DNA of 64,000 nucleotides. It comes from an uncultured Candidatus Saccharibacteria bacterium (GTDB taxonomy: Bacteria; Patescibacteriota; Doudnabacteria; UBA920). Both the position numbers and the translations under genes were made by a program. The stretch covers positions 183,178 to 247,177 of the forward strand of contig CAZQZS010000001.1 of NCBI GenBank assembly GCA_964597895.1, read 5' to 3'. Position 1 is the stretch's first letter. Each line of letters starts with the position of its first letter. The notes below the pieces were generated by a model. The model worked only from the letters and a program-made list of their open reading frames with translations. It did no database searches and was not told the DNA's origin. Below, piece by piece: positions 1 through 58,832 of the stretch.

Positions 1-131
1 CCAGCGGCGAGGATACCTCCGGAAAGGGGAGGCAGACCGCGAAGCGGTCGTTGGAAAGGGTCCGGGTTAAGTCCAAACTTGGTTTGGACTGCTAACCGGT
101 GAAAACCCTTTCCGGGTTTCCCCCTCCAAGA
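1..131 (+). repeat. Family-A structured intergenic repeat, long variant, 5' end truncated by window edge; ends 6 nt before rplP ATG
   Basis: Near-identical to 4607-4756 (shares ggaaaggggaggcagaccgcgaagcggtcgttggaa plus 48-nt insert with gtccaaacttggtttggac hairpin and gaaaaccc/gggttt 3' hairpin ending cccctccaag). Confidence 0.8.
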
Positions 132-136
132 ACATT

Positions 137-4093: not shown

Positions 4094-4594
4094 ATGGAAA
4101 AGAGATCTCGCAAACCGAATAATCGCACTCCGCAGCAGCCTCGTGAATTTGATCAGAAGGTTGTGGAAGTTAAGCGCGTCACCCGCGTAGTTGCTGGTGG
4201 TAAGCGCATGCGTTTCCGCGCTTTGGTGGTAATTGGTGACCACAAAGGCAAAGTTGGTATTGGTTTGAAAAAGGGGATGGACGTTACTGAGAGCGTCAAC
4301 AAAGCCGTGAATGCTGCAAAGAAGAACATGATTACTGTACCGATTGTTAACGATACGATTCCTCACGAAGTTAAAGTAAAGTACAAGTCCAGCAAACTCT
4401 TGATGATGCCTGCTCGTCCTGGTACTGGTGTAATTGCCGGTGGCGCTGTCCGTAGCGTTTTGGACATGGCTGGTATTAAGAACGTAATCAGCAAAATGGT
4501 TGGGTCTAACAATAAGACTAACAACGTTCGCGCTGCTTACGAAGCGTTCAAGATGATGCGCAGTAAAGAAGATATCTTGGCAGCCCGCAAATAA
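4094..4594 (+). CDS. rpsE: 30S ribosomal protein S5
   Basis: VTRVVAGGKRMRFRALVVIGD...; S5 dsRBD and C-terminal domain. Confidence 0.93.
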   Translation: MEKRSRKPNNRTPQQPREFDQKVVEVKRVTRVVAGGKRMRFRALVVIGDHKGKVGIGLKKGMDVTESVNKAVNAAKKNMITVPIVNDTIPHEVKVKYKSSKLLMMPARPGTGVIAGGAVRSVLDMAGIKNVISKMVGSNNKTNNVRAAYEAFKMMRSKEDILAARK

Positions 4595-4606
4595 CTAATT
4601 TAAACC

Positions 4607-4756
4607 CCGAGTCGTCTGGGTCTCCCAGCGACGAGGAAACTTAAGGAAAGGGGAGGCAGACCGCGAAGCGGTCGTTGGAAAGGGTCCGGGTTAAGTCCAA
4701 ACTTGATTTGGACTGCTAACCGGTGAAAACCCCTTCTGGGTTTTCCCCTCCAAAGA
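4607..4756 (+). repeat. Family-A structured intergenic repeat, long variant, occupying the position where rpmD (L30) normally sits; ends 5 nt before rplO ATG
   Basis: Near-identical to 1-131 over ~130 nt. Confidence 0.8.
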
Positions 4757-13988: not shown

Positions 13989-14023
13989 ATTATCAAAAAA
14001 TTCAGTGCAAATCACCTCCATAA

Positions 14024-14053
14024 AGAGACGTTGCAAAAACGTCTCTTTTAATT
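14024..14053 (+). terminator. Rho-independent terminator
   Basis: agagacgtt-gcaaa-aacgtctct then tttt. Confidence 0.8.
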
Positions 14054-14151
14054 TGCCAAAAAAAGGACTTGTGTTATAATAATTTAAAGTATTCTAGTTT
14101 GAAACCCAAACAAAAGTTCGCAAGAATACAAACAAAAATTCAACTAAAGTT

Positions 14152-14781
14152 ATGGATAAACACGCAAATTTGGCATTAATCGTGCAGATGATTGAAGCGG
14201 CTGAAAAAAACATTCAGTCTGCTAAGCATTTGTTGCGAGAAATGGCGGGCGGAGCACCAGTCAGAGGCAGCAGCAATATTGCCGAAAAAGTAACTGGTTT
14301 GGCGGTTTTAGATGGCGGCAAGATTATTGAAGGCGTGTTTGACGGCCAAAATATGATTGGTCCGGACAACAAGCAGTACCCAGTTCCAGCTAACTATGCT
14401 TCAAAATCTAAACTCGTAGAAGGAGACGTGCTTAAACTCACGATTGCTGATGATGGCTCCTTTATTTACAAACAAATTGGTCCGGTTGATCGCAAGAAGA
14501 TGATTGGTATGCTCCTGCAAGATGAAAACGGCGATTATAAAGTAATTGCTGATGGGAAAACTTTCCGAGTCCTTTTGGCTTCTTTAACTTATTTTAAAGC
14601 GTCAGCTGGCGATGAAGTCACGATTGTGGTTCCGCAAGAAGGCGATAGCCAATGGGCAGCCGTAGAGAATGTCATCAAGCACGGTGCAAATGCAGATTCA
14701 GAATTCAGTGCCGCTAGTGGGGAAGTTGATCCGGATGTAGAAGCGGATTCTTTAGCGCAACCAGAAACCGAAGAGTTTTAA
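14152..14781 (+). CDS. Hypothetical soluble protein (209 aa), acidic C-terminus
   Basis: ORF preceded by TTGCCA-16-TGTTATAAT promoter at 14053-14083. Confidence 0.55.
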   Translation: MDKHANLALIVQMIEAAEKNIQSAKHLLREMAGGAPVRGSSNIAEKVTGLAVLDGGKIIEGVFDGQNMIGPDNKQYPVPANYASKSKLVEGDVLKLTIADDGSFIYKQIGPVDRKKMIGMLLQDENGDYKVIADGKTFRVLLASLTYFKASAGDEVTIVVPQEGDSQWAAVENVIKHGANADSEFSAASGEVDPDVEADSLAQPETEEF

Positions 14782-14798
14782 ATTAAAATTTTTAATTC

Positions 14799-14934
14799 TT
14801 TGGCCAATTTCTTTGTCGTCAGCTCCGCTACTCGTTCACCGTAACTTTCATTACGACTCACTCGTTGCTCGCTGACTCCTGGCTCGCGATGGTCGGGCTT
14901 TGCCCGACCAAGCTCGTGTCGAACTTGACTCAAA
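14799..14934 (+). repeat. Family-C structured intergenic repeat, copy 1, with extra ggtcgggc-ttt-gcccgacc hairpin
   Basis: Shares ttggccaatttctttgtc...ctcgttcaccgtaacttNcattacgRctcactcgKtgctc...gaacttgRctcaaa with 17303-17400. Confidence 0.8.
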
Positions 14935-14975
14935 TAATTAAAAATTAAGAATTTAATTAGAAATTAAGAATTTCG

Positions 14976-15647
14976 ATGCAAAATACAGCCCAGCTCAGTT
15001 TAAATCAGAAAGTTGCCAACTTTTTGGCAGCTAAGCCAGTAATCTTGCAAATCTTGCGCTTTGGTGCCATTGGCACCCTTAACACGGCGCTGGATTTTAT
15101 TATACTTAACTACGTAACCGAAACTTTCGGAGTAGTAAGTGGTGTGCCTTTAGGACTTTTGAACGTAATTAGTTTTAGCGCGGCAGTAATTCAGAGTTAT
15201 TTATGGAACCGGGCTTGGACTTTTGCCAGCTTCAACCTTTCGCCATTCGCAAATGCGTTTAGATTGGTCGTAGTAGGCACTTTGGGTTTCGTTGCGTTTT
15301 TGCTTGTAATTTTTGGTGGTTTGCAAAATGCGGCAGAAAATTATTACTTATTTATTTTAATTGTCTTTATCGTTGTAGAAATCGTGATTTGGTATGCCTT
15401 TGGGCTTAAGTTAACTAGCAAGGACGATCGCGGCGTTGGCCAGCAGTTTGCCGTATTTATGTCTATTAGCCTAATTGGCCTGCTGATCAATAGCGGTATT
15501 GTTGCTTTAGCTTCTATTGCCTTGGCACCTTCTCTTTCCAGCCTTATCAATGAAGCTAGTATCAAGAATGCAGCCAAGATTTTGGCAACTGGTGTATCGC
15601 TCATCTGGAACTTCCTGGGCTACAAGCTTGTAGTGTTTAAGAAGTAG
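14976..15647 (+). CDS. GtrA-family membrane protein
   Basis: RFGAIGTLNTALDF ... NRAWTF motifs typical of GtrA; multiple TM helices. Confidence 0.6.
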   Translation: MQNTAQLSLNQKVANFLAAKPVILQILRFGAIGTLNTALDFIILNYVTETFGVVSGVPLGLLNVISFSAAVIQSYLWNRAWTFASFNLSPFANAFRLVVVGTLGFVAFLLVIFGGLQNAAENYYLFILIVFIVVEIVIWYAFGLKLTSKDDRGVGQQFAVFMSISLIGLLINSGIVALASIALAPSLSSLINEASIKNAAKILATGVSLIWNFLGYKLVVFKK

Positions 15648-15706
15648 AAATCCACGGCTTTAGGCGTTATTCTTCTCGCTTATCCATACTTGACTTTTTT
15701 CACCCA

Positions 15707-15735
15707 AAACCGCTCAATTAAGAGCGGTTTTGTTA
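15707..15735 (+). terminator. Terminator hairpin abutting dnaX promoter
   Basis: aaaccgctc-aatta-gagcggttt then tgtt. Confidence 0.6.
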
Positions 15736-15744
15736 TGGTATAAT
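15736..15744 (+). promoter_or_regulatory. Extended -10 promoter TGgTATAAT; dnaX ATG 8 nt downstream (leaderless)
   Basis: tggtataat 15736-15744; ATG 15753. Confidence 0.55.
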
Positions 15745-15752
15745 GATTATAT

Positions 15753-17288
15753 ATGGCAGTTTACTACCAGACTTATAGACCCCAGAATTTTAGCGAGGTT
15801 GTTGGTCAAGAACCAATCGTCAAAGCGCTTCTTTCAGCTTCAAAACTTGGCAAAATTGGCCATGCTTATTTATTTTGCGGAAGCCGGGGAGTGGGCAAGA
15901 CAACTTTGGCCAGAATTCTTGCCAAAGCTGCGAACTGCCCAAATTTAAAAGATGGTGATCCTTGCGGTGTTTGCGAAGTTTGTACTGCGATAGCGCGCGG
16001 CGCTTTTTTGGATGTTGTAGAAATTGATGCCGCCTCTCATACGGGAGTAGATAACATCCGCGAGCTTATAGAGCGCATCAATTTTGGCCCGACTCAAGGC
16101 AAAACCAAAGTTTTTATTATTGATGAAGTCCACATGCTTTCTAAGGCAGCCTTTAACGCTTTGTTAAAGACTTTAGAGGAACCGCCTTCTCATGCCTTAT
16201 TTATTTTAGCGACTACCGATTTAGACAAAGTGCCAGATACGATAGTTTCGCGCACTCAGCGGTTTGATTTTAGAAAGATTACAGCACCACAGATTTTAGA
16301 AACTTTAAAACGTATTGTAAAAAAGGAAAAATTAAAGCTGGAAGAATCAGCTTTACAAATTATCGTAGATAACAGCGAAGGCGGTTTGCGCGATGCGCTC
16401 TCGCAGTTATCCATGATTGCTGTGTTGGATAAAACTTCCAGCGAAGCGGACATTCACTTGCTGCTCGGAACTACTTCTCGGGCTACGGTAGTTTCGCTTT
16501 TGGATTTCGTTGCATCTGGTACGACCTCAGCTATGCCGGAATTTTTTGCCAAACAAACGGAATTGAATTTTGACCCGAGTAGCTTTACCAGAAAAGTCTT
16601 GCAAGTTCTTCAGGAACTCTTGGAAGACAGCTTGGCGAAAACCGGCGGCGACCATGAACTAGCCGGCAAGTTTTTGTTACCACAGCTGCTTCACGTAATG
16701 CGCCTGTATTTGCGCGCCTATAAAGAAATAGAGCGGGCTTTAAGCCCAGAACTTCCTTTATTACTGGCTAGTATAGAGGCGGCCTTATACATGTCGGGAG
16801 GTCGCGGCGCTTCCCAGAACGGCAACCAGGCAACCAAGCCCGCTGCAGAGTCTGCTGCTTCTCCAGTTAATCAAGTTCAAATTCAGCAACCTGTTGAACC
16901 TGTTGTTATTGATGCAGTTGTCGCCAGCGAGGCAACTGGCAAACCACCGGTATTAGAAACAGCCCAGGTTAAGAGCTGGTGGCCTAGCTTAGTGGATGAG
17001 ATGCGCAAAGTAAATGGACCATTGGCAACGTTGCTCCGCAATTGTCCGATTGCTTCGGTGGAGGGCAATAAGGTTGTGGTGGCAGTAAAATATTTATTTC
17101 ATAAAGAACAGCTTGAAAGCACAAAAATCCGGTCGTTTATTAATGAGCACTTAAGCAGCCAGGCCGGTGGCCCAGTTATGTTTTCGGCTACTATTGATAA
17201 GCGTTTAACCGTGACCGAGCAAATCGGCGACACCGCAACTGCAGTGTCGGATGCATTGCGGATCTTTGGCGGGGAAGTCATAGAGTAG
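15753..17288 (+). CDS. dnaX: DNA polymerase III subunit gamma/tau
   Basis: AAA+ clamp-loader motifs GSRGVGKTT, DEVHML, SRTQRFDF; zinc module CGVCEVC. Confidence 0.93.
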   Translation: MAVYYQTYRPQNFSEVVGQEPIVKALLSASKLGKIGHAYLFCGSRGVGKTTLARILAKAANCPNLKDGDPCGVCEVCTAIARGAFLDVVEIDAASHTGVDNIRELIERINFGPTQGKTKVFIIDEVHMLSKAAFNALLKTLEEPPSHALFILATTDLDKVPDTIVSRTQRFDFRKITAPQILETLKRIVKKEKLKLEESALQIIVDNSEGGLRDALSQLSMIAVLDKTSSEADIHLLLGTTSRATVVSLLDFVASGTTSAMPEFFAKQTELNFDPSSFTRKVLQVLQELLEDSLAKTGGDHELAGKFLLPQLLHVMRLYLRAYKEIERALSPELPLLLASIEAALYMSGGRGASQNGNQATKPAAESAASPVNQVQIQQPVEPVVIDAVVASEATGKPPVLETAQVKSWWPSLVDEMRKVNGPLATLLRNCPIASVEGNKVVVAVKYLFHKEQLESTKIRSFINEHLSSQAGGPVMFSATIDKRLTVTEQIGDTATAVSDALRIFGGEVIE

Positions 17289-17302
17289 ACTATGTTGTAA
17301 AT

Positions 17303-17400
17303 TTTGGCCAATTTCTTTGTCACCAGTTCCGCTCCTCGTTCACCGTAACTTTTATTACGGCTCACTCGGTGCTCACTGGTTTCGCGAACTTGGCTCAAAA
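17303..17400 (+). repeat. Family-C structured intergenic repeat, copy 2
   Basis: See 14799-14934; conserved hairpin cgtaa-cttttat-ttacg at 17344-17359. Confidence 0.8.
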
Positions 17401-17450
17401 TTTCCAACATTAATTCCAATGAATTTTAAATAAAAAATTAATTAAAACTT

Positions 17451-19094
17451 ATGGAAGACAAAAATAAAAAAATCATGTCCGCAGTGATTGGAATAGCGGT
17501 CTTGGCTTTGGTCGTTGTGACAGTTTGGGAACCGGGCTCCCTGAGTTTCCGAGACCCGACCGATTATGACGAACAGGCACGCCTAGCTCAAGAAGAGTTA
17601 GAACAATACCGGGAATTACTTGCCTCAATTGAGCCGAACGTTGCCGCTAGTCAGCAGTTCCTGCAAAAAGTTGCCACAGAAGAGCTGGTGCGCGAAGAAG
17701 TGGAAGCTGCTTTGCAAACCAACCAGCGCGTAACCATTCCACAAGTCGCTAATTCAGAAATCAACTTGGCTAGCCGGAATGACCGAGACTTCGTGGTAAA
17801 TTATCTCAACGACACGCGCTCTATGATGGCTAATTATTCAGAGTCAATCAAGGGGAGTGTGGATGACCTGTTTTCACCGACTGGTAGTGCAGCTGAATTA
17901 GCCCGCGCCGAAGCGCTTACTAATGATTTTGTAAATAATTGGAAGACAGTCAGTGTGCCGCCTTCAGCGGCAGAACTGCACAAAGCAAGTATGACTGCTT
18001 TGGATCAGTACGGTGATGTGTTTGCCGTAGCTAAGGATTATTCCGGCATTCAAACCAATGAGCCGTGGCCGACAGTGTATAACAAGTATGCGGTGATAGA
18101 CAACCGCTTAGCGAGCGTCAAAACTGAGCTAGAAAAACTTAATGCCACATTTGCTTTCGCACCAGAGGAAGTAGAATTGCCAGATTTTAGCTTAGTAAAA
18201 ACAGCTCACGCCCAATTTGGATTTGGAACTATCGTTACTATAGACTGGCAAATGATTTTATACGAAGGGATTCGCACTGGATTAGCTCGGTCTTTTGCGC
18301 AGTTTAGCATTAACATGATTGATAAGCTGGTTGGCCATATTGAAAAGAACTTTGCCATTGCCAGTCAGCTCTACTATTCTAACGAGCTTGGGCGCTTCTA
18401 TTCGGTAGAGTACATGCAAAAATTCGTGTCTGATCCATTGGACCGTGACATTATTTCTAAATTTATTCCAGAGTATTTCTGTATCAATCCGGACGGCCGG
18501 CAATTGCGAGATATTTTTGTAGCCAAGGCCAGAGAAAATGTCGGCAACGATTTGGTGATTAATCCGGCCGACCCAGACTTCTTACAAAAATTAGCGCGCC
18601 TTGGCGCAGACGAAAAGAACTATCCGCTATGGTGGGAAGGTTATTACCAGTCATTGGCTGCCCAGACTAAAGCCGAGGCCGACAAGGCCGCTACAAAAGA
18701 AGTTGTTAGCCCTGGTGTTAAGAGCGGGCGCGACATTGTAAACAGTCAAATCCAGAAAACCGTTTCTTCTATTTTGGGCGTTCAGGAATCTGCTATTAAT
18801 GGCGCTATGGAGCTTGGTTCTAATAATGCCGAGAATATAGCCAGCCAGTTAGTTGCTGGTATCGTCCAGAATTTAGTTAATAAGTTTATTTTCACTCCGC
18901 TAGCTGGCGGCTCAACATCTGGCCCTGGTGGTATCGGCATCATCGCCGAGCGCAATGTTTGTTTGGCCAGTGCTCAGATAAAACCGCTTATTCCGCTTCC
19001 AGAAGGCGGATATCAGAGTCCGCAGCAGCCCACTGTGCCGCCTCAAACAGAAAACCCGGGCAATTATCCTGGCACGGGACTGCCACCCCGTTAA
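17451..19094 (+). CDS. Hypothetical secreted/membrane-anchored protein (547 aa) with Pro-rich C-terminus
   Basis: N-terminal TM/signal anchor; no recognisable catalytic motifs. Confidence 0.5.
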   Translation: MEDKNKKIMSAVIGIAVLALVVVTVWEPGSLSFRDPTDYDEQARLAQEELEQYRELLASIEPNVAASQQFLQKVATEELVREEVEAALQTNQRVTIPQVANSEINLASRNDRDFVVNYLNDTRSMMANYSESIKGSVDDLFSPTGSAAELARAEALTNDFVNNWKTVSVPPSAAELHKASMTALDQYGDVFAVAKDYSGIQTNEPWPTVYNKYAVIDNRLASVKTELEKLNATFAFAPEEVELPDFSLVKTAHAQFGFGTIVTIDWQMILYEGIRTGLARSFAQFSINMIDKLVGHIEKNFAIASQLYYSNELGRFYSVEYMQKFVSDPLDRDIISKFIPEYFCINPDGRQLRDIFVAKARENVGNDLVINPADPDFLQKLARLGADEKNYPLWWEGYYQSLAAQTKAEADKAATKEVVSPGVKSGRDIVNSQIQKTVSSILGVQESAINGAMELGSNNAENIASQLVAGIVQNLVNKFIFTPLAGGSTSGPGGIGIIAERNVCLASAQIKPLIPLPEGGYQSPQQPTVPPQTENPGNYPGTGLPPR

Positions 19095-19100
19095 AACCCT

Positions 19101-20342
19101 ATGACTGATTTAGATAAACCAACAATTGAATCCGGCAACCACATCCCGACAGCTCCAGCCGTAGAACCATCTCCACCCCAAGCGCCTTATTGGGTTGTGG
19201 TTTTGGCTTTACTGGCCGGCATAGTTGGCGGAATGTATGGGGCGCTAGATTTATCACAGCGGCCGTTCTTTCAAAACTTGTTTGGCCAGGGACCGCAAGA
19301 CTCCAGTCTTAGTCAGACAGTTCAGGTGACAGAGGATTCTGCGGTGACGAATGTTGTCAGCGAAGCTGGCCCTGCTGTGGTATCAATTGTGATTTCTCGC
19401 GATGTTAGTCAAGATTTTATATTTGATCCGTTCGGGTTTTTTGGCAGTCAACCACAGGCTCAAAGTGAGCCCAATGTGCAAGAGGTCGGAGCAGGTAGCG
19501 GGTTCTTTGTGAGTCCCGATGGCTGGATCATGACCAACAAGCATGTAGTCTTAGATGAGACTGCTACTTATACAGTAGTGACAAAGGATGGCGAGTCATA
19601 CGAGGCAAAGGTTATGGCGCGCGACCCGAGCAATGACTTAGCCTTAATGAAGATTGAAATTAGCAATGCGCCGTACTTGCGCTTTGCCGACTCTGATAAT
19701 CTACAGCTCGGGCAAAGTGTCGTGGCTATCGGTAATTCTCTTGGCCAGTATCAAAATACTGTTACCTTTGGAATTATTTCCGGAGTCGGCCGAAGCATTC
19801 GCGCTGGCGGCGGCGGAATCTCAGAACTGTTGGAGGGTGTGATTCAGACTGATGCGGCGATTAATCAGGGCAATTCTGGTGGTCCATTGCTCAATTTAGC
19901 TGGTTCTGTGGTAGGGATTAACACGGCAGTTGATTTTAGTGGTCAATCCATCGGTTTTGCCATTCCCGCTAACGATGCCAAAATCGCTTTTGAAAGCTAT
20001 CAGAGAAACGGAAAAATTTTGCGGCCTTATCTTGGCGTACGGTATACGATGATCACTCCGGCCATGGCTGAAGCCAACGATCTACCCAAGGATTACGGCG
20101 CTTTGATTGTCCGCGGCAGTGGTTTAACCGACTTTGGCGTGTTGCCTGGTAGCCCTGGTGATCGAGCTGGCCTGCGCGAGAATGATATAATTTTAGAGTT
20201 AGGTGGACAACGATTGGATGAAGATAATTCGTTGGCAAGAGCTTTGCGCAAGTTTTCTCCGGGAGAGCGCGTGGAAGCTAAGATTTACCGCGATGGCGGC
20301 GAACAAAATATTACTATAGAAATAGGAGAGCGGACGCAATGA
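19101..20342 (+). CDS. HtrA/DegP-family serine protease (trypsin-like + PDZ), membrane-anchored
   Basis: Catalytic triad contexts TNKHVV, DLALMKI, GNSGGPL; C-terminal PDZ-like region. Confidence 0.9.
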   Translation: MTDLDKPTIESGNHIPTAPAVEPSPPQAPYWVVVLALLAGIVGGMYGALDLSQRPFFQNLFGQGPQDSSLSQTVQVTEDSAVTNVVSEAGPAVVSIVISRDVSQDFIFDPFGFFGSQPQAQSEPNVQEVGAGSGFFVSPDGWIMTNKHVVLDETATYTVVTKDGESYEAKVMARDPSNDLALMKIEISNAPYLRFADSDNLQLGQSVVAIGNSLGQYQNTVTFGIISGVGRSIRAGGGGISELLEGVIQTDAAINQGNSGGPLLNLAGSVVGINTAVDFSGQSIGFAIPANDAKIAFESYQRNGKILRPYLGVRYTMITPAMAEANDLPKDYGALIVRGSGLTDFGVLPGSPGDRAGLRENDIILELGGQRLDEDNSLARALRKFSPGERVEAKIYRDGGEQNITIEIGERTQ

Positions 20343-20716
20343 AAATTTTAGGAATTGATTTTGGTGAAAAGCGCATCGGTCTTGCTATCAGCGATGAAAC
20401 TCAAACATTAGCCCGTGAGCTAGATATTTGGTCGCCGGCAAAATTTTGGTTAGAAATTGCGGATCTGGTTTCCAAGCAGGCTGTAGAAAAGGTAGTGGTT
20501 GGCTTGCCACTGAATATGTCCGGAGAACAAACCGAAAAATCAGTCGAAGTTCAAACATTTGTTGACCAGTTGAGTAAGCTCATCAGCCAGCCAATAGAAT
20601 TAACAGATGAACGATTGTCCAGCGTGATGGCTGCCCAGGTAGCAGGACAAGACAGAAATATTGATAGTCTCGCAGCCCAAATATTCTTGCAAGAGTACTT
20701 AAATAGTAAAAAGTAA
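20339..20716 (+). CDS. ruvX: Putative pre-16S rRNA nuclease / Holliday junction resolvase-like YqgF
   Basis: ILGIDFGEKRIGLAISD N-terminus. Confidence 0.88.
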   Translation: MKILGIDFGEKRIGLAISDETQTLARELDIWSPAKFWLEIADLVSKQAVEKVVVGLPLNMSGEQTEKSVEVQTFVDQLSKLISQPIELTDERLSSVMAAQVAGQDRNIDSLAAQIFLQEYLNSKK

Positions 20717-20729
20717 AGAGTAAAATGTA

Positions 20730-21086
20730 ATGAAAGATAGTAATTATCAACATTGGCCAGTATGGCAAAAGTCTATGGAATTAGTACTCAAAGTTTATAA
20801 GTTAACTAATAATTTTCCAAAGTCTGAAATGTTTGGCCTCACTTCACAAATGCGCAGATGTGTAACCTCTATTCCTGCTAATATTGCCGAAGGTAGTAGA
20901 AGGAATTCAAAAAAAGAATTGCACAGATTTTTATCTATAGCTTTTGGTTCTGGGGCAGAGCTAGAAACTTTTTTACAGATTGCTTTATCTCTAAAATTTA
21001 TCAAATCATCTGAATTTAATGATTCATATCCGCTTTTACAGGAAGTGATGAAGATGTTAAACGTAATGACCAAAAATACCAGGTAA
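20730..21086 (+). CDS. Four-helix-bundle protein (23S rRNA intervening-sequence protein family), AT-rich gene
   Basis: W..S..L...VYKLT..FPK.E.FGLTSQMRR...SIPANIAEG family signature. Confidence 0.8.
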   Translation: MKDSNYQHWPVWQKSMELVLKVYKLTNNFPKSEMFGLTSQMRRCVTSIPANIAEGSRRNSKKELHRFLSIAFGSGAELETFLQIALSLKFIKSSEFNDSYPLLQEVMKMLNVMTKNTR

Positions 21087-21122
21087 AGCAGATTACTTCT
21101 TACTATTTACTTTTTAATTTTT

Positions 21123-22127
21123 ATGTCCCAATTTCGCCAAAATCCAGTTAATAAACAATGGGTTCTGATTGCGCCAAGCCGCAGCAAGCGCCCCGAAGAC
21201 TTCCGTACTTATAGCGTTGGTTTTGGCTTGCCAGAACTTGATCCTGCGTGCGTTTTTTGCCCTGGTAATGAACACAAAAATCCGGATCTATGCGAAGACG
21301 TCTGCCGTTTGCCGAACGATAATAATTGGCAGCTACGAGTAATCTCTAATAAATATTCTGCCCTAGAAGAAGCTCGGATTTATCGCAACCGAGATTTTTA
21401 TCATTCCCAGGCAGGATATGGAGAGCATGAAGTGATTATCACGCGCAAGCACAACGAACCGCCGGCTTTGCAATCGGCTGTCTTGGTTCAGCAGACTTTA
21501 AAGATGTTCCAGGACCGCATTAAGTTCATCCATCAAGATCCAAAGATTAATTACGTACAAATCTTTCATAACCACGGCCGCGACGCTGGCGCTTCACTGA
21601 TTCATCCCCACTATCAGATTTTGGCAACGCCAATGGTGCCACCTCATGTTCACGACGAAATCCGCGGCTGCTATCACCATTACCAGCTTACTGGCCACTG
21701 CATATATTGCGATATTATCAAAGAAGAAACCAAGCTGCGCGATCGCATTGTCTACGAAGACGATTATTTTATTGTGATGTCTGCATACGCGTCCCGCAGT
21801 CCGTTTGAAACTTGGGTTTTACCAAAGCGACACCACGCGCGTTTTGAGGCGACCTCTGACGTTGAATTGCTGCATTTATCGCATGTGCTCAAAAAGGTGC
21901 TTGGCTCTTTGTATGTAAAGCTCTCGGACCCGCCACTGAATTTTTATTTCCACTCCATGCCGAAATCAACTGACAAACACATTATTCAGGAAGAAAAGAG
22001 CTATCATTGGCACCTTACAATATTCCCACGCTTGACCATTTGGGCCGGCTTTGAGTACGGTACTGGCATTCCAGTGAACCCAATGGCCCCAGAAATGACG
22101 GCGCAATTTTTAAGAGGGGAGTTATGA
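21123..22127 (+). CDS. galT: Galactose-1-phosphate uridylyltransferase family (HIT-like)
   Basis: CVFCPGNEH zinc motif and HPHYQ active-site motif. Confidence 0.8.
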   Translation: MSQFRQNPVNKQWVLIAPSRSKRPEDFRTYSVGFGLPELDPACVFCPGNEHKNPDLCEDVCRLPNDNNWQLRVISNKYSALEEARIYRNRDFYHSQAGYGEHEVIITRKHNEPPALQSAVLVQQTLKMFQDRIKFIHQDPKINYVQIFHNHGRDAGASLIHPHYQILATPMVPPHVHDEIRGCYHHYQLTGHCIYCDIIKEETKLRDRIVYEDDYFIVMSAYASRSPFETWVLPKRHHARFEATSDVELLHLSHVLKKVLGSLYVKLSDPPLNFYFHSMPKSTDKHIIQEEKSYHWHLTIFPRLTIWAGFEYGTGIPVNPMAPEMTAQFLRGEL

Positions 22128-22810
22128 TGGGCAAGTTAATCGTCGCTAACTGGAAACTTAATCCGCTCACCGAACGTGAAGCCATCTCTTTGTCTGAGCG
22201 CATCAAGCAGGTTAGCCCGTATGAAGTTGTTCTTTGTCCGCCATTGGCTTTTTTGAATTCGGTAAAGTATCTTCATCTGGGAGCACAGGATGTCTCCCCT
22301 CAAATTAAGGGACCATATACAGGACAGGTGTCAGCGAGCCATCTTGCCAGTTTGGACGTTAAGTATTGCATCGTAGGACACAGCGAGCGCAGAGCGATGG
22401 GTGAGAGGGACGATTTGATTAACCAAAAATTGCAGGCTTTAGTTCATTACAAAATTACTCCAATCCTTTGCGTAGGCTACGGTACTACGGTTAGTCAGGA
22501 TGAGTTAGAGGTCACTGATGTGCTAGGCTCTCAATTGAACCAGGATTTGGACGGCATAGATCCAAAAAAGATAATCGTTGCTTATGAGCCGGTCTGGGCG
22601 ATCGGCAGCGGCCGGGCAGCTACACCTGAACATGCCGAGCAAATAGCTTTGTACATTCAAACTAAGTTCGGAGTCAAGAAAGTTTTGTATGGAGGTAGCG
22701 TTAACAGTACCAACAGCGAAGCATTTTTGTCGCAGCATCATATTGATGGTTTGCTGGTCGGGGGAGCCTCTCTATTGCCAGATGACTTTAATAAGATAAT
22801 AAGAGCATGA
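22124..22810 (+). CDS. tpiA: Triose-phosphate isomerase
   Basis: ANWKLN, VGHSERR, AYEPVWAIG motifs. Confidence 0.9.
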   Translation: MMGKLIVANWKLNPLTEREAISLSERIKQVSPYEVVLCPPLAFLNSVKYLHLGAQDVSPQIKGPYTGQVSASHLASLDVKYCIVGHSERRAMGERDDLINQKLQALVHYKITPILCVGYGTTVSQDELEVTDVLGSQLNQDLDGIDPKKIIVAYEPVWAIGSGRAATPEHAEQIALYIQTKFGVKKVLYGGSVNSTNSEAFLSQHHIDGLLVGGASLLPDDFNKIIRA

Positions 22811-22817
22811 ATCAATT

Positions 22818-22978
22818 TCGCTCATTTGGCTTCAGTCGGAAGTAAATTCCAACCTTCAGCCAAATATCGCCCCTTTGGGGTTTAACCAATTGCTTCGTTA
22901 TTTTCCTCGGAACCCTGTCATCGTAGCTTTACTACGACTCCAGAGTTCCTCGGAAAATGCCTCGCACTTGGCTAAACG
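22818..22978 (+). repeat. Family-B structured intergenic repeat, copy 1 (contains terminator-like gcccctttggggttt and conserved hairpin cgtag-cttta-ctacg)
   Basis: Shares ~80 nt near-identity with 33974-34040 and a core related to family C. Confidence 0.8.
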
Positions 22979-23008
22979 AAAACGATTCATGTAAAAAGTA
23001 AGCATATA

Positions 23009-23458
23009 ATGATTTATATTGCAGCCGACCACGGCGGATTTAAACTTAAACAGCATCTAGTGAAGTTTTTGCAAAAGCAAAAGCTTGAGTTTAAAGATCT
23101 CGGTCCGGCAAAATTTAAAGACGGCGATGACTATCCTGAGTACGGCTCCAAGGTCGCGAGGCAGGTTTCCAAAAATCCTGTCAGCAATCTTGGCATATTG
23201 ATTTGCCGCAGTGGGCAAGGCATGTGCATCGTTGCCAACAAGTTTATTGGCGTGAGAGCAGCTTTGGCCTGGAATACAGCTTCCGCAAAACAGAGCCGCA
23301 ATGATGATATGGCTAATGTATTGTGTTTACCTAGTGATTTTCTTAACAGCCAGCAGGCCGAAGATATACTGAAAGCATGGCTGAATACACCTTATTCTAG
23401 CGACGCTCGCCATATGAGAAGAATTAAAAAAATAAGCAAATTAGAGGAGTCCTTGTGA
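23009..23458 (+). CDS. rpiB: Ribose-5-phosphate isomerase B
   Basis: MIYIAADHGG...ICRSGQGM RpiB/LacAB signature. Confidence 0.88.
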   Translation: MIYIAADHGGFKLKQHLVKFLQKQKLEFKDLGPAKFKDGDDYPEYGSKVARQVSKNPVSNLGILICRSGQGMCIVANKFIGVRAALAWNTASAKQSRNDDMANVLCLPSDFLNSQQAEDILKAWLNTPYSSDARHMRRIKKISKLEESL

Positions 23459-24102
23459 TTATACCGGCAATTTTAGAAACGAATGCAAAACAATTTCAGG
23501 CAAAATTAAAAGAAGTTTTAGTTTTAAAGAATGGCATTAAAACCATTCAGGTTGATTTTGCGGATGGTGAGTTTGTGGCAACCAAAACCGTTGAGGTTGG
23601 GGAAATCAAACTCCCAAAAAATAAAATTGAGTTTGAAGCTCACCTCATGGTTAGGCGTCCTGATAACTTTACAGATTACAAAAAGGCCGGCTTTGATAAG
23701 ATCATTCTTCACTATGAGTCATTTGATAATGAAACAGAATTGGAAGATGCTTTGGAGGAAATTCGCAAGCTAAAGATGAAACCAGCGTTGGCAATTTCGC
23801 CGACCACGGCTGTTTCAGTATTGCGTTATTTTTCTGATAACATTTTGAATTTTACATTATTAGCCGTAGTGCCAGGCAAGCAAGGTCAGAAAATGCTTCC
23901 TGATACGCTTGAGAGGTTGATGGAACTCCGTGACCATGCCAAGGCAGGCACGGTAATTGAGGTTGACGGTGGAGTCAACGAAGCAAATATTGCCGGCTTA
24001 ATCGACGCGGGTGCGACCGATTGCGTAGTCGGCTCGGCTTTGGTCTCGGGTGATATAAAAGAAAATTATCAAACATTATTAGCAGCGATTACCAATGGCT
24101 AA
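23455..24102 (+). CDS. rpe: Ribulose-phosphate 3-epimerase
   Basis: IIPAIL N-terminus, VDGGVN, TIM-barrel Rpe pattern. Confidence 0.85.
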   Translation: MIIPAILETNAKQFQAKLKEVLVLKNGIKTIQVDFADGEFVATKTVEVGEIKLPKNKIEFEAHLMVRRPDNFTDYKKAGFDKIILHYESFDNETELEDALEEIRKLKMKPALAISPTTAVSVLRYFSDNILNFTLLAVVPGKQGQKMLPDTLERLMELRDHAKAGTVIEVDGGVNEANIAGLIDAGATDCVVGSALVSGDIKENYQTLLAAITNG

Positions 24103-33933: not shown

Positions 33934-33973
33934 TCAGATTTGGTTATGCTATGATGGAAAGGTTAGAACTCTG

Positions 33974-34136
33974 TCGCTCATTTGGCTTAAGTTGTAAGTA
34001 AATTCCAACTTTCAGCCAAATATCGCCCCTTCGGGGTTTAGTCAATTTCATTGTCATCGGCTTCCGTTACTCATTCATCGTACTATTAAGTACGACTCAT
34101 TCGTTACTCAGCCGATTCCTCGAGCTTGACTAAACG
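33974..34136 (+). repeat. Family-B structured intergenic repeat, copy 2 (gccccttcggggttt; hairpin cgtac-tattaa-gtacg)
   Basis: See 22818-22978. Confidence 0.8.
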
Positions 34137-34163
34137 CCAGTGTTCTAGGTATTTAAGTAGATT

Positions 34164-39078: not shown

Positions 39079-39099
39079 ATGATCGTATTCCATTTACCA

Positions 39100-39200
39100 C
39101 TACCCACTTCGGAGGTAGTAAGCTAGCGCCAGACCGCCAAAGCCTAACGTGAGTTAGGCGAAAGGCGGGCGAGAGCGCTGCCGAAGAAGTGGGTGGCTAA
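39100..39200 (+). other. ~100-nt rod-like structured leader ending ~8 nt before the mreB ATG
   Basis: cccacttcgg/ccgaag(aag)tggg outer stem; gcgc/gcgc, ccgcc/ggcgg inner stems; apical gcctaac-GTGA-gttaggc. Confidence 0.5.
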
Positions 39201-49326: not shown

Positions 49327-49431
49327 TGGAGAGGGCGCCGGGATTTGAACCCGGACCTTGGCCTAAGTTGGCCTGCCTCTGGGGAGGTACAGTTTTCAAG
49401 ACTGTTGCTTTTTCCATTAAGCTACGCCCCC
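49327..49431 (-). tRNA. tRNA-Ser(UGA)-like, 105 nt, with abnormal 34-nt variable region
   Basis: Acceptor GGGGGCG/CGCCCTC, D arm GCTT-AATGGAAA-AAGC, anticodon arm ACAGT-CTTGAAA-ACTGT, T arm CCGGG-TTCAAAT-CCCGG, encoded CCA. Confidence 0.7.
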
Positions 49432-50012: not shown

Positions 50013-50855
50013 CTATTGGTGAACCAGCCGATTTAAAAGCACCAAGAAAATCGGAACAGGAGAGCGAGAGTGAGTCAGACGAAAGCTAAACTCGTTTAAG
50101 TAGTCCTGCAAATATTTGGGCGAGACTCTATGATACGTGCCATCGATAGACCGCTTGATTTGGCTAAAGAAGCCCTCAACGCTGTTGGTGTGAGTCCAGC
50201 CATTAACATACTGCTTACTAGAGTGGTTCACAGAGCTATGACCATAACCCTTTAGGCTCTTGCGGTTATACACCGAAGCACCGTCAGTCATAATCGCACT
50301 GCCGGCCTCAACCTCGTTATGGATTAACGGAATGGTATTGAACTGCTTTATTTTCTGCATTACCACAGCTTTAGCACTACCGCCACGCTGAACCAAACCT
50401 AAAACCTTTGGAACACCCGCCCTAGAGCGTGGTGTTTTCATTTTCTCCAAGTAGGCTTCATCCACCTCAACCACTCCGCTTAGTTTTAAGTCGCTCAAAT
50501 CCATAAGGGAGCGGATTTGTTTAGCGATACGCCAAGCAGTTTTGTAGGTTACACCCAAGTCTCTTTCCAACTCTTTGCCGGAAACTCCATTACGAGAGTT
50601 GGCGAACTTGTAAATGGCGAAGAACCACAAGACTAAATCTGTTTCTGATTTATGGAAGATAGTCCCAGCAGTGGGGTGAATTTGATAAGCACAGCTAGCG
50701 CAAGCCCACGCTTTGCGTTTCTTAATCCTGTGCCAACTAGACTTCCCACAGTTAGGGCAAGGGAACTGATAGCCATAACGATACTTAAAGATATACTCCA
50801 AGCAAGCGTCATTATCTGGGAAGTCTTTTTTGAAGTCTTTTATTGTGTATTTCAT
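50013..50855 (-). mobile_element. IS1595-family (ISXO2-like) transposase gene; IS boundaries not determined
   Basis: N-terminal Zn-ribbon CPNCG...CASC; DDE region with DEAY, TDGASVY, HSSVNHS..YVNG.HTNSVEGFFSQIKR. Confidence 0.85.
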
Positions 50856-51148: not shown

Positions 51149-51246
51149 ATCTGGCTTTGCCAGGGTCTGAGCACCCAAGGAAAGGGGAGGCAGGAGCGAA
51201 GCGACGTTGGAAGGAGAAAACCCTTCCCGGGTTTTCTCCTCCAAAC
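51149..51246 (+). repeat. Family-A structured repeat, divergent copy, ending at the mraZ ATG
   Basis: tctggctttgccag...ggaaaggggaggcag...ttggaaggagaaaaccc...gggttttctcctccaaa; compensatory changes in hairpins. Confidence 0.7.
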
Positions 51247-51684
51247 TGTCTTATGTTTATCGGTGAATTTCAAGCATCAATTGATGATAAGGCCCGCGTG
51301 GCAATCCCAGCCAAGTTCCGCAGTTCTTTGAAATCAAAGGTCGTAGTAACCAGAGGGTTGGATAACTCCTTGGTTCTGTACACATTAGACGAATGGAAGA
51401 AGCTTGCCGAGAAGGTGGCTAGTCTCCCAATTTCTACTGCCAACACGCGCGCTTTTTCTCGTCTGATGCTTGCAGGAGCAATGGATTGCGATATTGATAA
51501 GCAGGGTCGCATTGTCATTCCAGGCTACCTCAAGGAATTTGCCAAGATTTCCAAAAAGCTTGTTTTCGCCGGTCTTTATAACCGCGTGGAAATTTGGAGC
51601 GACGAAGCTTGGCAAAAATACAAAACACAAACAGAAAAACAAAGCAATCAAATTGCCGAACAATTGGGTGATCTAGGAGTATAA
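51247..51684 (+). CDS. mraZ: Transcriptional regulator MraZ (track ORF 51157 starts inside repeat)
   Basis: MFIGEFQASIDDKARVAIPAKFR and second SpoVT/AbrB-like repeat. Confidence 0.9.
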   Translation, partial: CLMFIGEFQASIDDKARVAIPAKFRSSLKSKVVVTRGLDNSLVLYTLDEWKKLAEKVASLPISTANTRAFSRLMLAGAMDCDIDKQGRIVIPGYLKEFAKISKKLVFAGLYNRVEIWSDEAWQKYKTQTEKQSNQIAEQLGDLGV

Positions 51685-58545: not shown

Positions 58546-58620
58546 TGGCTGGGGTACCAGGATTCGAACCTGGGAATGAGCGGACCAAAACCGCTTGCCT
58601 TACCACTTGGCTATACCCCA
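58546..58620 (-). tRNA. tRNA-Gln(UUG)
   Basis: Cloverleaf: acceptor TGGGGTA/TACCCCA, anticodon arm AGCGG-TTTTGGT-CCGCT, T arm CCAGG-TTCGAAT-CCTGG, G73+CCA. Confidence 0.85.
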
Positions 58621-58696
58621 ATATATAATTTTCTGATTCGTTTGCCTGTGTCCGCTCTGAGCGGACCTCTATAATATAACGGCTACTGGCGTAAGC

Positions 58697-58731
58697 CTAT
58701 GGCGCTTGCCTTACCACTTGGCTATACCCCA
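58697..58731 (-). pseudogene. Duplicated 5' half of tRNA-Gln (~30 nt identical to 58593-58620)
   Basis: gcttgccttaccacttggctatacccca repeated 104 nt downstream. Confidence 0.6.
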
Positions 58732-58832
58732 ATAATTTTCAATTAGCCTTGATATGATACCGAAAATAGTGGTTTTTGGCAAGAATGCGCGCGTTTTTGT
58801 ATGGTATAATTTACCTATATTTAACAAGATTT

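What the first reader, a model, noticed from the sequence alone, without database searches (positions are those of the whole stretch)
14799..14934. Family-C intergenic repeat (two copies, after the 14152 gene and after dnaX) with closing outer stem
14799-14934 and 17303-17400 share ttggccaatttctttgtc(N)cag(N)tccgct(N)ctcgttcaccgtaactt(NN)attacg(R)ctcactcg(K)tgctc ... gaacttg(R)ctcaaa. The 5' tttggccaa and 3' ttggctcaaa/ttgactcaaa ends can pair, so the whole element closes into one domain. Copy 1 carries an extra perfect hairpin ggtcgggc-ttt-gcccgacc. Both copies lie between co-directional genes in the same orientation.
Basis: seen in the sequence. Interest (0 to 1): 0.7.

Follow-up and report, generated by a model that had tools for sequence, protein, structure and literature searches.

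The report
Mobile hairpin repeat of CPR bacteria
The two look-alike intergenic stretches belong to a family of about 100-base hairpin-forming repeats, undescribed as far as I could find, that has recently inserted between genes here and, in other ultra-small (CPR/Patescibacteria) bacteria, sits in frame inside essential genes, much like the palindromic elements of Rickettsia.

Summary
The window holds four copies, not two: 14799-14934, 17303-17400, 22881-22976 and 34038-34135. All fold into one long hairpin with strong covariation (93% of cells paired, 29 of 32 pairs with compensatory changes across 88 distinct sequences).

The better-folding strand is the minus strand, antisense to the genes. 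There the internal loops are conserved tandem G·A mismatches and the wobble pairs are G·U.

No Rfam family matches. An exact 29-nt core pattern recovers at least 117 loci, nearly all labelled CPR/Patescibacteria, and none in viral contigs.

All four window sites are empty in syntenic DNA of relatives (DnaX 74-86% identical, RecJ 82-91%), so these are lineage-specific insertions. Elsewhere the element lies in frame inside IleRS, DNA polymerase I and aminopeptidase N; it also lies within the methyltransferase ORF of L092. No transposase or other gene travels with it.

Best reading: a non-autonomous, mobile palindromic repeat (MITE-like, closest to Rickettsia RPEs). It is not a dedicated sRNA gene or terminator. 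How it moves is unknown. I found no prior description.

The parts
14799..14934 (-). Copy c1 of the hairpin repeat, between a 209-aa hypothetical gene and a GtrA-like gene. With its copy-specific closing stem (AATTTTTAATT / AATTAAAAATT) it spans about 14787-14946.
   Evidence: (97.1 bits, minus strand). The site is empty in L119 and L120; L118 keeps only an 11-nt 3' remnant, CTTGACTCAAA.
14891..14909 (.). Extra perfect hairpin GGTCGGGC-TTT-GCCCGACC nested inside c1, between the outer and second stems. It is absent from the other copies.
   Evidence: single occurrence in the window. A comparable nested palindrome, TCCGCCAGCTGGCGGA, sits in the loop of copy L072b.
17303..17400 (-). Copy c2, between dnaX and a 547-aa hypothetical gene. 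With the closing stem ATGTTGTAAAT / ATTTCCAACAT it spans about 17292-17410.
   Evidence: (113 bits). The site is empty in L118, L119 and L120, which have spacers of 43, 39 and 37 nt.
22881..22976 (-). Copy c3, between tpiA and rpiB. Its central tandem G·A and A·A mismatches are replaced by Watson-Crick pairs, with helix length preserved.
   Evidence: -51.6 kcal/mol, z -11; 102 bits. In L119 and L120 tpiA and rpiB overlap (GCATGATTTAT) with no spacer. The window has ATGA on both sides of a 202-nt insert.
22818..22880 (-). Accessory module of c3: the hairpin ATTTGGCT...AGCCAAAT plus the mini-hairpin CCCCTTTGGGG (22870-22880). Together with c3 and the flanks CATGAATC / GATTCATG it forms a closed three-hairpin domain, about 22806-22991.
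   Evidence: (family D5, 87% identical to 33974-34057). The same three-part layout occurs upstream of rpiB in L058.
34038..34135 (-). Copy c4, between gpmI (iPGM) and recJ.
   Evidence: 107.9 bits. The site is empty in L124, L125 and L126, which have spacers of 52-54 nt.
33974..34037 (-). Accessory module of c4: a D5 hairpin plus the mini-hairpin CCCCTTCGGGG (34026-34036). The composite is closed by the flanks TAGAACTCTG / CAGTGTTCTA, about 33961-34150.

Best explanation
This is a family of short (about 100-200 nt), non-coding, hairpin-forming interspersed repeats that are or recently were mobile in CPR/Patescibacteria genomes. It is a non-autonomous palindromic element of the MITE kind, and behaves most like the Rickettsia palindromic elements.

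Shown:
- Each copy is one long imperfect hairpin.
- Only the central 45 nt or so is conserved in sequence: ...GAG-N-A-N-CG-AGUGAG-YCGUA-loop-UACGRU-GAAYGAG-N-AGCGG... on the G-rich strand.
- All other stems vary by compensatory changes.
- The internal loops are conserved purines that can form tandem G·A pairs on the G-rich strand.
- Copies land in unrelated places: right after stop codons, between formerly overlapping genes, and in frame inside essential genes.
- Copies are present or absent between close relatives.
- No gene travels with them.

Inferred:
- A trans-acting enzyme recognises the conserved core as a folded single strand (DNA or RNA) of the G-rich polarity. This would explain why the centre is conserved rather than the termini, and why G·U/G·T outnumbers A·C.
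- Surviving copies are those the host tolerates. Between genes, these are the copies whose mRNA carries the weaker-folding C/U-rich strand. Within genes, these are copies that are in frame and free of stop codons, mostly in the G-rich sense, which encodes a hydrophilic E/R/S-rich loop.
- Side effects on the host mRNA, such as 3' end protection, RNase III sensitivity, or a TTGRCT -35-like box facing the downstream gene, are possible but untested.
For: Structure
- RNAalifold on the 4 window copies gives 33 pairs, 15 of them compensatory.
- On 88 distinct sequences, 93.2% of cells are paired and 29 of 32 pairs show double changes. The covariation score is 0.683, against 0.18 for shuffles and 0.07-0.10 for slid controls.

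Strand
- The minus strand folds 10-30 kcal/mol better.
- G·U to A·C is 145:40 outside the pattern-forced core, and the unpaired columns are conserved G/A.

Mobility
- All 4 sites are empty in syntenic loci of relatives.
- The covariance models find 0 copies in about 124 kb of that DNA.
- The same MAG (CAZQMO01) has two copies on another contig (L072).
- A deletion remnant remains at site 1 in L118.

In-frame genic copies
- IleRS: a 33-aa insert relative to solved IleRS structures.
- Pol I: a 49-aa insert just before motif C, relative to Taq.
- Aminopeptidase N: the core at residue 143 of a continuous 906-aa ORF whose Peptidase_M1_N match is reported as two stretches.
- A methyltransferase (L092): the core at residue 441 of a continuous 527-aa ORF, C-terminal to the Pfam matches. 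This case is weaker.

Distribution
- At least 117 loci, nearly all labelled Saccharibacteria, Paceibacterota, Gracilibacteria, Peribacteria, Kerfeld-, Zambryskii- or Yanofskybacteria.
- No hits in viral contigs.

Non-autonomy
- No neighbour protein is enriched: at most 5 of 75 loci share one.
- The gene between two inverted copies in L057 reads, by eye, as a C-terminal processing peptidase and not a transposase; it was not run against Pfam.

Prior description
- No Rfam family matches.
- No paper was found.
Against: - No unambiguous target-site duplication and no autonomous partner were found, so the mobility mechanism is unproven.
- Copies within one genome differ by compensatory changes (c1 vs c3 about 60% identical). 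This means either long-lived subfamilies or selection on each copy's structure, and the second would argue for a host function.
- The 29-nt core is identical across very distant CPR lineages, which is unusual for selfish repeats and also fits a conserved host function.
- Orientation is strongly non-random (30 vs 4).
- Each copy is closed by flanking inverted repeats that are specific to that copy. Ordinary cut-and-paste transposition does not predict this.
- Retrieval by an exact core pattern inflates the apparent conservation of the core, and the alignment used for pair counts was fitted to the model.
Confidence: 0.72

Rival explanations
1. A host cis-acting RNA element in mRNAs: a 3'-end stabiliser, an unconventional terminator or insulator, or an intercistronic RNase III processing site. 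On this view it has been recruited repeatedly and kept by selection. It would work either as the C/U-rich hairpin in the sense transcript or as a block to antisense transcription, where the very stable G-rich hairpin forms.
For: - Copies start 2-40 nt after stop codons.
- Orientation relative to flanking genes is strongly biased, 30 vs 4.
- Structure is maintained by covariation even among copies in one genome.
- The + strand RNA still folds well, with z-scores of -5 to -7.
- REP, ERIC and Correia elements are known to affect mRNA stability and RNase III/E cleavage (PMC10969869).
Against: - There is no U tract after the stem.
- The element inserted between tpiA and rpiB, which overlap and are presumably translationally coupled in relatives. 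A terminator there would be harmful.
- Close relatives manage without it at all four sites.
- In-frame copies inside IleRS, Pol I and PepN cannot be terminators.
- The G·U excess points to the strand that is usually not the mRNA.
Confidence: 0.12
2. A multi-copy family of small antisense or trans-acting RNA genes transcribed from the G-rich (minus) strand. The RNA would be a rod-like hairpin with tandem G·A pairs that binds a conserved CPR protein.
For: - The G-rich strand is the strongly folding one, with z-scores of -5.5 to -11.
- The purine loops and G·U pairs are conserved.
- The core is conserved across CPR lineages.
Against: - No promoter-like or terminator-like signals bracket the copies on the minus strand.
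- Copies are inserted in frame inside coding genes in both orientations.
- Presence and absence vary between close relatives.
- Nothing in Rfam matches.
- Accessory hairpins and nested palindromes vary from copy to copy.
Confidence: 0.07
3. A rival on mechanism only: a classical DDE-transposase MITE, with terminal inverted repeats plus a direct target-site duplication. It would be mobilised in trans by an IS such as the IS1595-family element in this window, rather than a hairpin recognised in single-stranded form.
For: - An IS1595-family transposase gene lies at 50013-50855 on the minus strand.
- ATGA is present on both sides of the tpiA|rpiB insert.
- AT-rich direct similarities flank c1, and TAACAATTA flanks the L118 remnant.
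Against: - The conserved part is the centre of the hairpin, while the termini vary by compensatory change. A transposase that binds termini predicts the opposite.
- By eye, the IS flanks show no similarity to the element's ends.
- No transposase is enriched next to copies in 75 loci.
- No consistent duplication length was seen across the four sites.
Confidence: 0.15

Closest known systems
Rickettsia palindromic elements (RPE; Ogata et al. 2000, as summarised in PMC10969869)
   Same: - About 100-150 nt palindromic, non-coding repeats found in a group of bacteria with small genomes.
- Found both between genes and in frame inside unrelated housekeeping genes, where they add a peptide loop without destroying the protein.
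- No associated transposase, and the mobilisation mechanism is unknown.
   Different: - A different phylum-level group (CPR, not Rickettsia).
- No sequence relationship was tested or is expected.
- Here most copies seen are intergenic.
- The element has a deeply conserved core with tandem G·A mismatches and clear strand asymmetry.
- It has modular accessory hairpins and copy-specific closing stems.
ERIC / IRU elements of Enterobacteriaceae and Vibrionaceae
   Same: - An imperfect palindrome of about 127 bp with a conserved central inverted repeat.
- Located in transcribed intergenic regions, with occasional intragenic copies.
- Copy number varies between relatives.
- Variants carry internal insertions.
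- The means of spread is unknown.
- Conserved across a wide host range (PMC10969869).
   Different: - A different sequence and a different host group.
- ERIC is not characterised by tandem G·A loops (my own knowledge).
- The orientation bias and in-frame genic copies are much more prominent here.
REP / REPIN elements with RAYT (HUH Y1) transposases, and IS200/IS605-type single-strand transposition
   Same: - Hairpin-forming repeats thought to be recognised as folded single-stranded DNA.
- A REPIN is a hairpin of about 100 nt.
- Strand-biased distribution relative to replication.
   Different: - No terminal GTAG/CGTC tag.
- No Y1 transposase among the 60 window ORFs scanned, and none near the 75 loci.
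- REPs are extragenic, whereas this element also sits in genes.
- The better-folding strand lies on the negative-GC-skew strand. By my reasoning this is not the lagging-strand template favoured by IS608-type elements.
Correia (NEMIS/CREE) elements of Neisseria and similar bacterial MITEs
   Same: - Inverted-repeat elements of about 100-150 bp, co-transcribed with neighbouring genes.
- They form long RNA hairpins that RNase III can cut.
- They can supply promoter boxes (PMC10969869).
   Different: - Correia elements have defined terminal inverted repeats and a TA duplication.
- Here the termini are variable and no consistent duplication was found.

Membership tests
Any Rfam 15 RNA family | Score at or above the family's gathering threshold | tested here: not met
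   only two tRNAs reach threshold in the whole window; best E-values at copies c1 and c3 are 1.5-9, from unrelated miRNA, snoRNA and NsiR8 models.
MITE (generic prokaryotic) | Short (<300 bp), non-coding, multi-copy | tested here: met
   Copies are 96-136 nt, or about 185-190 nt with the accessory module. There are four copies in 64 kb and at least 117 loci elsewhere.
MITE (generic prokaryotic) | Insertion polymorphism between related genomes | tested here: met
   All four sites are empty in syntenic relatives.
MITE (generic prokaryotic) | Conserved terminal inverted repeats matching those of an autonomous IS | tested here: not met
   The whole element is an inverted repeat, but the termini vary by compensatory change and the centre is what is conserved. 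No IS with matching ends was found. The flanks of the window's IS1595 copy look unrelated by eye.
MITE (generic prokaryotic) | Direct target-site duplication of fixed length | tested here: inconclusive
   ATGA is duplicated at the tpiA|rpiB site, and AT-rich similarities flank c1. No consistent length emerged across the four filled/empty comparisons.
Rickettsia palindromic elements (RPE) | Palindromic repeat inserted in frame in unrelated protein-coding genes, compatible with the protein | tested here: met
   IleRS carries a 33-aa insert and Pol I a 49-aa insert before motif C. Aminopeptidase N has the core in a continuous 906-aa ORF whose Peptidase_M1_N match is reported as two stretches. A methyltransferase (L092) has the core C-terminal to its Pfam matches in a continuous 527-aa ORF, which is weaker evidence.
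Rickettsia palindromic elements (RPE) | Sequence membership in one of the RPE families; host genus Rickettsia | not tested
   No RPE sequences were available in the tools. All hosts here are labelled CPR/Patescibacteria, so family membership is not claimed, only the same behaviour.
REP / REPIN-RAYT | Terminal GTAG or CGTC tag on a 20-40 bp palindrome; strictly extragenic | tested here: not met
   The core has an internal CGTA...TACG, not a terminal tag. The element is about 100 nt and also occurs inside genes.
REP / REPIN-RAYT | A RAYT (Y1 HUH transposase) gene in the genome, flanked by the repeats | tested here: inconclusive
   There is no Y1_Tnp hit among the 60 window ORFs scanned with Pfam, and no enriched neighbour gene near the 75 loci. 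Whole genomes could not be searched.
Intrinsic (Rho-independent) terminator | G+C-rich stem-loop followed directly by a U tract | tested here: not met
   The terminator scan of 14000-24000 reports nothing at c1, c2 or c3. The sequences after the stems are A-rich or mixed.
Integron attC site | R''/R' boxes (RYYYAAC / GTTRRRY) at the ends; follows cassette ORFs next to an integrase | tested here: not met
   The ends read TTTRRYCAA / TTGRCTMAAA. The neighbours are housekeeping genes, and some copies lie inside genes.
Group II intron domain V (superficial AGCCGUA...UACGGU resemblance) | Match to the Rfam group II D5/D6 model; intron context | tested here: not met
   There is no hit with E<10, and no intron-encoded protein nearby.

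The most novel reading that the evidence does not exclude
The element could be a new class of hairpin-based mobile or processed nucleic-acid element specific to CPR bacteria. Its deeply conserved core, with tandem G·A pairs, would be the recognition site of a conserved but unidentified CPR enzyme acting on single-stranded DNA or RNA. Insertion would create an inverted copy of the adjacent target sequence, producing the copy-specific closing stems seen at all four window copies. Alternatively, the closed hairpin would be cut out of, or processed within, host transcripts. That would explain how it is tolerated between translationally coupled genes and inside IleRS and Pol I.
Probability: 0.12. 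Interest if true: 0.85.

Novelty: new member of a known kind. Interest (0 to 1): 0.58.

Why it matters
CPR/Patescibacteria have tiny, streamlined genomes and are usually described as poor in repeats. This family changes that picture in three ways:
- It is widespread, still polymorphic, and able to split overlapping genes.
- It adds 33-49-residue loops to essential enzymes, which makes it an overlooked source of genome and protein variation in these organisms.
- It probably also breaks assemblies and misleads gene calling. For example, ORFs were extended through neighbouring repeats in this window.

It is also a second, independent case of the Rickettsia phenomenon of selfish DNA inside protein-coding genes, and it again occurs in reduced genomes.

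The core is conserved across distant CPR lineages, contains tandem G·A pairs and shows strand asymmetry. That points to a conserved trans-acting partner, which could be identified by phylogenetic profiling. The covariance model built here can be used directly to mask or census the element.

Tried and rejected
Approaches that led nowhere, or ideas I set aside:
1. Rfam, both at gathering thresholds over the whole window and with permissive E-values on two copies, gave nothing relevant.
2. I considered a hammerhead or other self-cleaving ribozyme because of GAGUGAG...UGAAC around a hairpin. The core motifs do not match and there is no Rfam hit.
3. The resemblance to group II intron domain V (AGCCGUA/UACGGU) is too short, and there is no model hit.
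4. I considered a K-turn or C/D-box-like motif. The tandem G·A pairs are present, but there is no 3-nt bulge and no box consensus. This is a reading of the sequence only.
5. An integron attC site does not fit: the end boxes are wrong, the neighbours are housekeeping genes, and some copies are genic.
6. An intrinsic terminator does not fit: there is no U tract.
7. I looked for a composite transposon in L057, where two inverted copies lie 1.47 kb apart. The gene between them reads as a Ctp-type peptidase (by eye, not run against Pfam).
8. I looked for a helper gene near the copies by all-vs-all clustering of 533 ORFs from 75 loci. Nothing was enriched.
9. I tested for phage carriage. There were no hits in viral contigs.
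10. I compared the ends of the window's IS1595 element with the element's termini and saw no resemblance by eye.
11. I tried to define a target-site duplication from four filled/empty site pairs. The result was ambiguous.
12. The D5 accessory-module pattern was not found verbatim in the other loci, although L058 has the same layout with a different sequence.
13. The orthologous IleRS copies were too similar to each other to test structure against coding constraint.
14. Six literature searches were run. The five aimed at CPR or palindromic repeats found no description of this element; the sixth supplied the RPE/MITE background.

Full report
**1. What is in the sequence**

They are 89% identical over their first 76 nt. 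Repeat finding and direct reading show two further, more diverged copies at 22881-22976 and 34038-34135.

I built a covariance model from the four copies and ran it over the whole window without filters. It scores exactly these four at 97-113 bits, and nothing else above 18 bits. A second model built from 101 homologues again finds only these four.

The four copies lie in these gaps:
- c1: a 209-aa hypothetical gene | a GtrA-like gene
- c2: dnaX | a 547-aa hypothetical gene
- c3: tpiA | rpiB
- c4: gpmI | recJ

Nearly all genes in the window are on the + strand, and GC skew is positive throughout. So 'co-oriented with the genes' is the local background rather than a distinguishing feature.

**2. 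Structure and strand**

All copies fold into one long hairpin with three sets of stems:
- an outer stem (TTTRRYCAA / TTGRCTMAAA);
- a second stem that differs completely between copies but always pairs (GTCAGC/GCTGAC, ACCAGT/ACTGGT, TTTTCC/GGAAAA, ATCGGCT/AGCCGAT);
- an apical stem (CGTAA/TTACG, CGTAG/CTACG, CGTAC/GTACG).

With only four sequences, RNAalifold finds 33 pairs, 15 of them with compensatory changes.

On 88 distinct sequences from other genomes, 93.2% of cells are paired and 29 of 32 pairs show double changes. The covariation score is 0.683, against 0.18 in shuffles and 0.07-0.10 when partners are slid. That alignment was fitted to the model, which favours the structure, but the margin is very large.

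The minus strand is the better folder:
- -40.3 vs -30.4, -51.6 vs -33.0 and -38.5 vs -27.4 kcal/mol, with z-scores down to -11;
- with the flanks included, -52.7 to -95.8 on the minus strand against -41 to -66 on the plus strand.

On the minus strand, the C·A mismatches of the + strand become G·U pairs. Outside the region fixed by my search pattern, G·U/U·G outnumber A·C/C·A by 145 to 40. The unpaired columns are conserved G and A, arranged as 5'-GA/3'-AG tandem mismatches every few base pairs.

In copy c3 the central mismatches are replaced by Watson-Crick pairs with the helix length unchanged.

The extra hairpin in c1 (14891-14909) is real and unique in the window. A different nested palindrome sits in the loop of a copy in L072.

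**3. It is not a described RNA family**

Rfam 15 gives nothing at gathering thresholds. Permissive E-values return only chance-level hits. Five literature searches aimed at CPR or palindromic repeats found no description of such an element in CPR/Patescibacteria; a sixth supplied the RPE/MITE background.

**4. Distribution**

I scanned one genome per species for the exact core TGAGYCGTA-N7-8-TACGRTGAAYGAG.

Nearly all are labelled Saccharibacteria, Paceibacterota, Gracilibacteria, Peribacteria, Kerfeldbacteria, Zambryskiibacteriota, Yanofskybacteria or 'Patescibacteria group'. They include a complete oral Saccharibacteria genome. A few MAGs are labelled Gammaproteobacteria, and I did not verify those labels.

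The model recovers full-length hairpins at these loci: 101 hits in the first 100 loci and 18 more in a second search of 21 sources (L101-L117 plus four syntenic loci). No viral contig carries the core.

The window itself is from a Patescibacteria genome. Its DnaX and RecJ have 100% matches on a 286-kb NCBI contig, and named relatives at 68-69% identity are 'Candidatus Doudnabacteria'.

**5. Evidence for mobility**

I fetched syntenic loci from relatives (DnaX 86, 84 and 74% identical; RecJ 91, 90 and 82% identical). Gene order is the same, but all four sites are empty.

| Site | Flanking genes | Gap in window | Gap in relatives |
|---|---|---|---|
| 1 | 209-aa hyp \| GtrA-like | 194 nt | 60, 16 and 8 nt |
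| 2 | dnaX \| 547-aa hyp | 162 nt | 43, 39 and 37 nt |
| 3 | tpiA \| rpiB | 198 nt | 81 nt in one; genes overlap (GCATGATTTAT) in the other two |
| 4 | gpmI \| recJ | 230 nt | 52-54 nt |

Both models find no copy in about 124 kb of this syntenic DNA. Yet the MAG that supplies L118 and L124 carries two copies on another contig, L072.

At site 1, L118 retains only the last 11 nt of the element, CTTGACTCAAA. This points to an older insertion that was later mostly deleted.

At site 3 the insert separates two genes that formerly overlapped, and ATGA is present on both sides.

**6. Copies inside genes**

About 40 of the 117 loci place the core inside the isoleucyl-tRNA synthetase gene of oral Saccharibacteria. 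There the mRNA carries the C/U-rich strand. Against solved IleRS structures, the element corresponds to a 33-residue insert, query residues 261-293. I treat these loci as one ancient event inherited vertically: the copies are nearly identical and their outer stems have decayed.

Independent genic copies, all with the G-rich strand as sense, are:
- DNA polymerase I (L088): a 49-residue insert immediately before motif C relative to Taq polymerase.
- Aminopeptidase N (L094): the core at residue 143 of a continuous 906-aa ORF whose Peptidase_M1_N match is reported as two stretches.
- A methyltransferase (L092): the core at residue 441 of a continuous 527-aa ORF, C-terminal to the Pfam matches. This case is weaker.
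- The N-terminal region of a G6PD open frame (L087), where the core lies upstream of the Pfam domains and may precede the true start.

The G-sense frame encodes a hydrophilic peptide such as EERVSRTNGTMNER. By my own reading of c2, two of three frames are open on the C/U-rich strand and one of three on the G-rich strand.

This is the behaviour described for Rickettsia palindromic elements (PMC10969869).

**7. No helper gene**

Among 533 ORFs from the 75 non-IleRS loci, no protein cluster occurs in more than five loci.

The gene between two inverted copies in L057 reads as a C-terminal processing peptidase (by eye, not run against Pfam).

I ran Pfam on 60 window ORFs. The only transposase is an IS1595-family gene at 50013-50855 on the minus strand, whose flanks do not resemble the element's ends. 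No Y1/HUH transposase was found.

**8. Orientation**

I excluded the IleRS copies and used crude ORF calls. Intergenic copies flanked by co-directional genes have the G-rich strand antisense to those genes in 30 cases and sense in 4. By my own arithmetic this is a two-sided binomial p of about 6e-6, although some sites may not be independent.

The G-rich strand lies on the locus strand with negative GC skew in 44 of 52 informative loci.

Gene direction and replication direction are confounded in these genomes, so I cannot say which of the two matters.

My preferred inference is selection. The G-rich RNA hairpin is far more stable and nearly continuous, which makes it a likely RNase III substrate or ribosome block, so sense insertions in that orientation are lost. 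The G·U excess, however, shows that the G-rich strand is the one under structural constraint. That is most simply explained if this strand is what the mobilising machinery recognises.

**9. Unexplained features**

- Every window copy is closed by an additional outer stem built from its own flanks: AATTTTTAATT/AATTAAAAATT, ATGTTGTAAAT/ATTTCCAACAT, CATGAATC/GATTCATG and TAGAACTCTG/CAGTGTTCTA. In at least sites 3 and 4, one arm looks like ancestral host sequence. The insertion process might copy the adjacent target in inverted orientation, or these outer stems may be variable parts of the transposed unit. I could not decide between these.
- Copies c3 and c4 carry a second hairpin and a CCCCTTYGGGG mini-hairpin. 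The same three-part layout, with different sequence, is upstream of rpiB in L058. The genic copies carry a second hairpin, TTTCCGGCT-C-AGCCGGAAA. The family is therefore modular.
- No consistent target-site duplication emerged.

**10. Verdict**

It is best classed as a new family of mobile palindromic repeats of CPR bacteria.

By behaviour it is closest to RPEs, and it also resembles ERIC, REPIN and Correia elements. It fails the defining tests for each of those families, and for terminators, attC sites and every Rfam family.

Its mechanism of spread and any host function remain inferred.

**Caveats**

- Retrieval by an exact core pattern exaggerates the conservation of the core.
- Gene calls in the loci are simple longest-ORF calls.
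- Taxon labels are those of the database records.

Noticed in passing
window 1-132, 970-1093, 4592-4756, 51160-51247: A different repeat family, G-rich on the + strand. It sits immediately upstream of rplP (L16), rplN (L14), rplO (L15) and mraZ, and ends in the hairpin GGAAGGAGAAAACCC-UUCCC-GGGUUUUCUCCUCC. It makes naive ORF calls for L14 and MraZ start about 33 codons too early.
   Followed up: partly
window 20697-21126: A gene for a 23S_rRNA_IVP / bAvd-like four-helix protein (20730-21086) is bracketed by 35-nt inverted repeats (20697-20731 / 21092-21126). The gene is present in relative L118 but absent between ruvX and galT in L119 and L120, so it looks like a small mobile cassette.
   Followed up: partly
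window 50013-50855 (-): An IS1595-family (ISXO2-like DDE plus zinc ribbon) transposase gene. It is the only transposase found among the 60 window ORFs scanned with Pfam.
   Followed up: partly
window 49330-49431 (-): A 102-nt match to the Rfam tRNA model (62 bits, full length) that ARAGORN does not call, which suggests a tRNA gene with an intervening sequence. A 2026 paper reports group I introns in Patescibacteria tRNA genes (PMC13011429), but this insert is far too short for that.
   Followed up: no
L075:2386-7671 (-) and other oral Saccharibacteria loci: The open frames containing IleRS are 1200-1760 aa long and give Pfam hits to LMW phosphotyrosine phosphatase, NUDIX and alpha/beta-hydrolase domains inside the span of the tRNA-synt_1 match. 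This means either very large domain insertions in IleRS or fused neighbouring genes.
   Followed up: no
window 39096-39199 (+): A G+C-rich (0.60) structured-looking stretch in the gap upstream of mreB gave a weak chance-level hit to the model (E 0.05). The two close relatives have no such spacer, because murA and mreB are adjacent there.
   Followed up: no
window 58592-58623 and 58703-58734: An exact 32-nt direct repeat, 111 nt apart, overlapping the 5' part of tRNA-Gln (58546-58620, minus strand). This may be a duplicated tRNA fragment such as an integration scar.
   Followed up: no
window 14925-14952 and the 3' (+ strand) end of every copy: The outer-stem arm of the element reads TTGACT or TTGGCT and faces the downstream gene. 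At c1 the promoter scan pairs it with AAGAAT at a 16-nt spacing (9 of 12 matches). The element might therefore donate a -35-like box.
   Followed up: no
window 4594-4723: rpsE (S5) is followed directly by rplO (L15), with no rpmD (L30) between them. From my own knowledge, this fits the reported absence of L30 in CPR bacteria.
   Followed up: no
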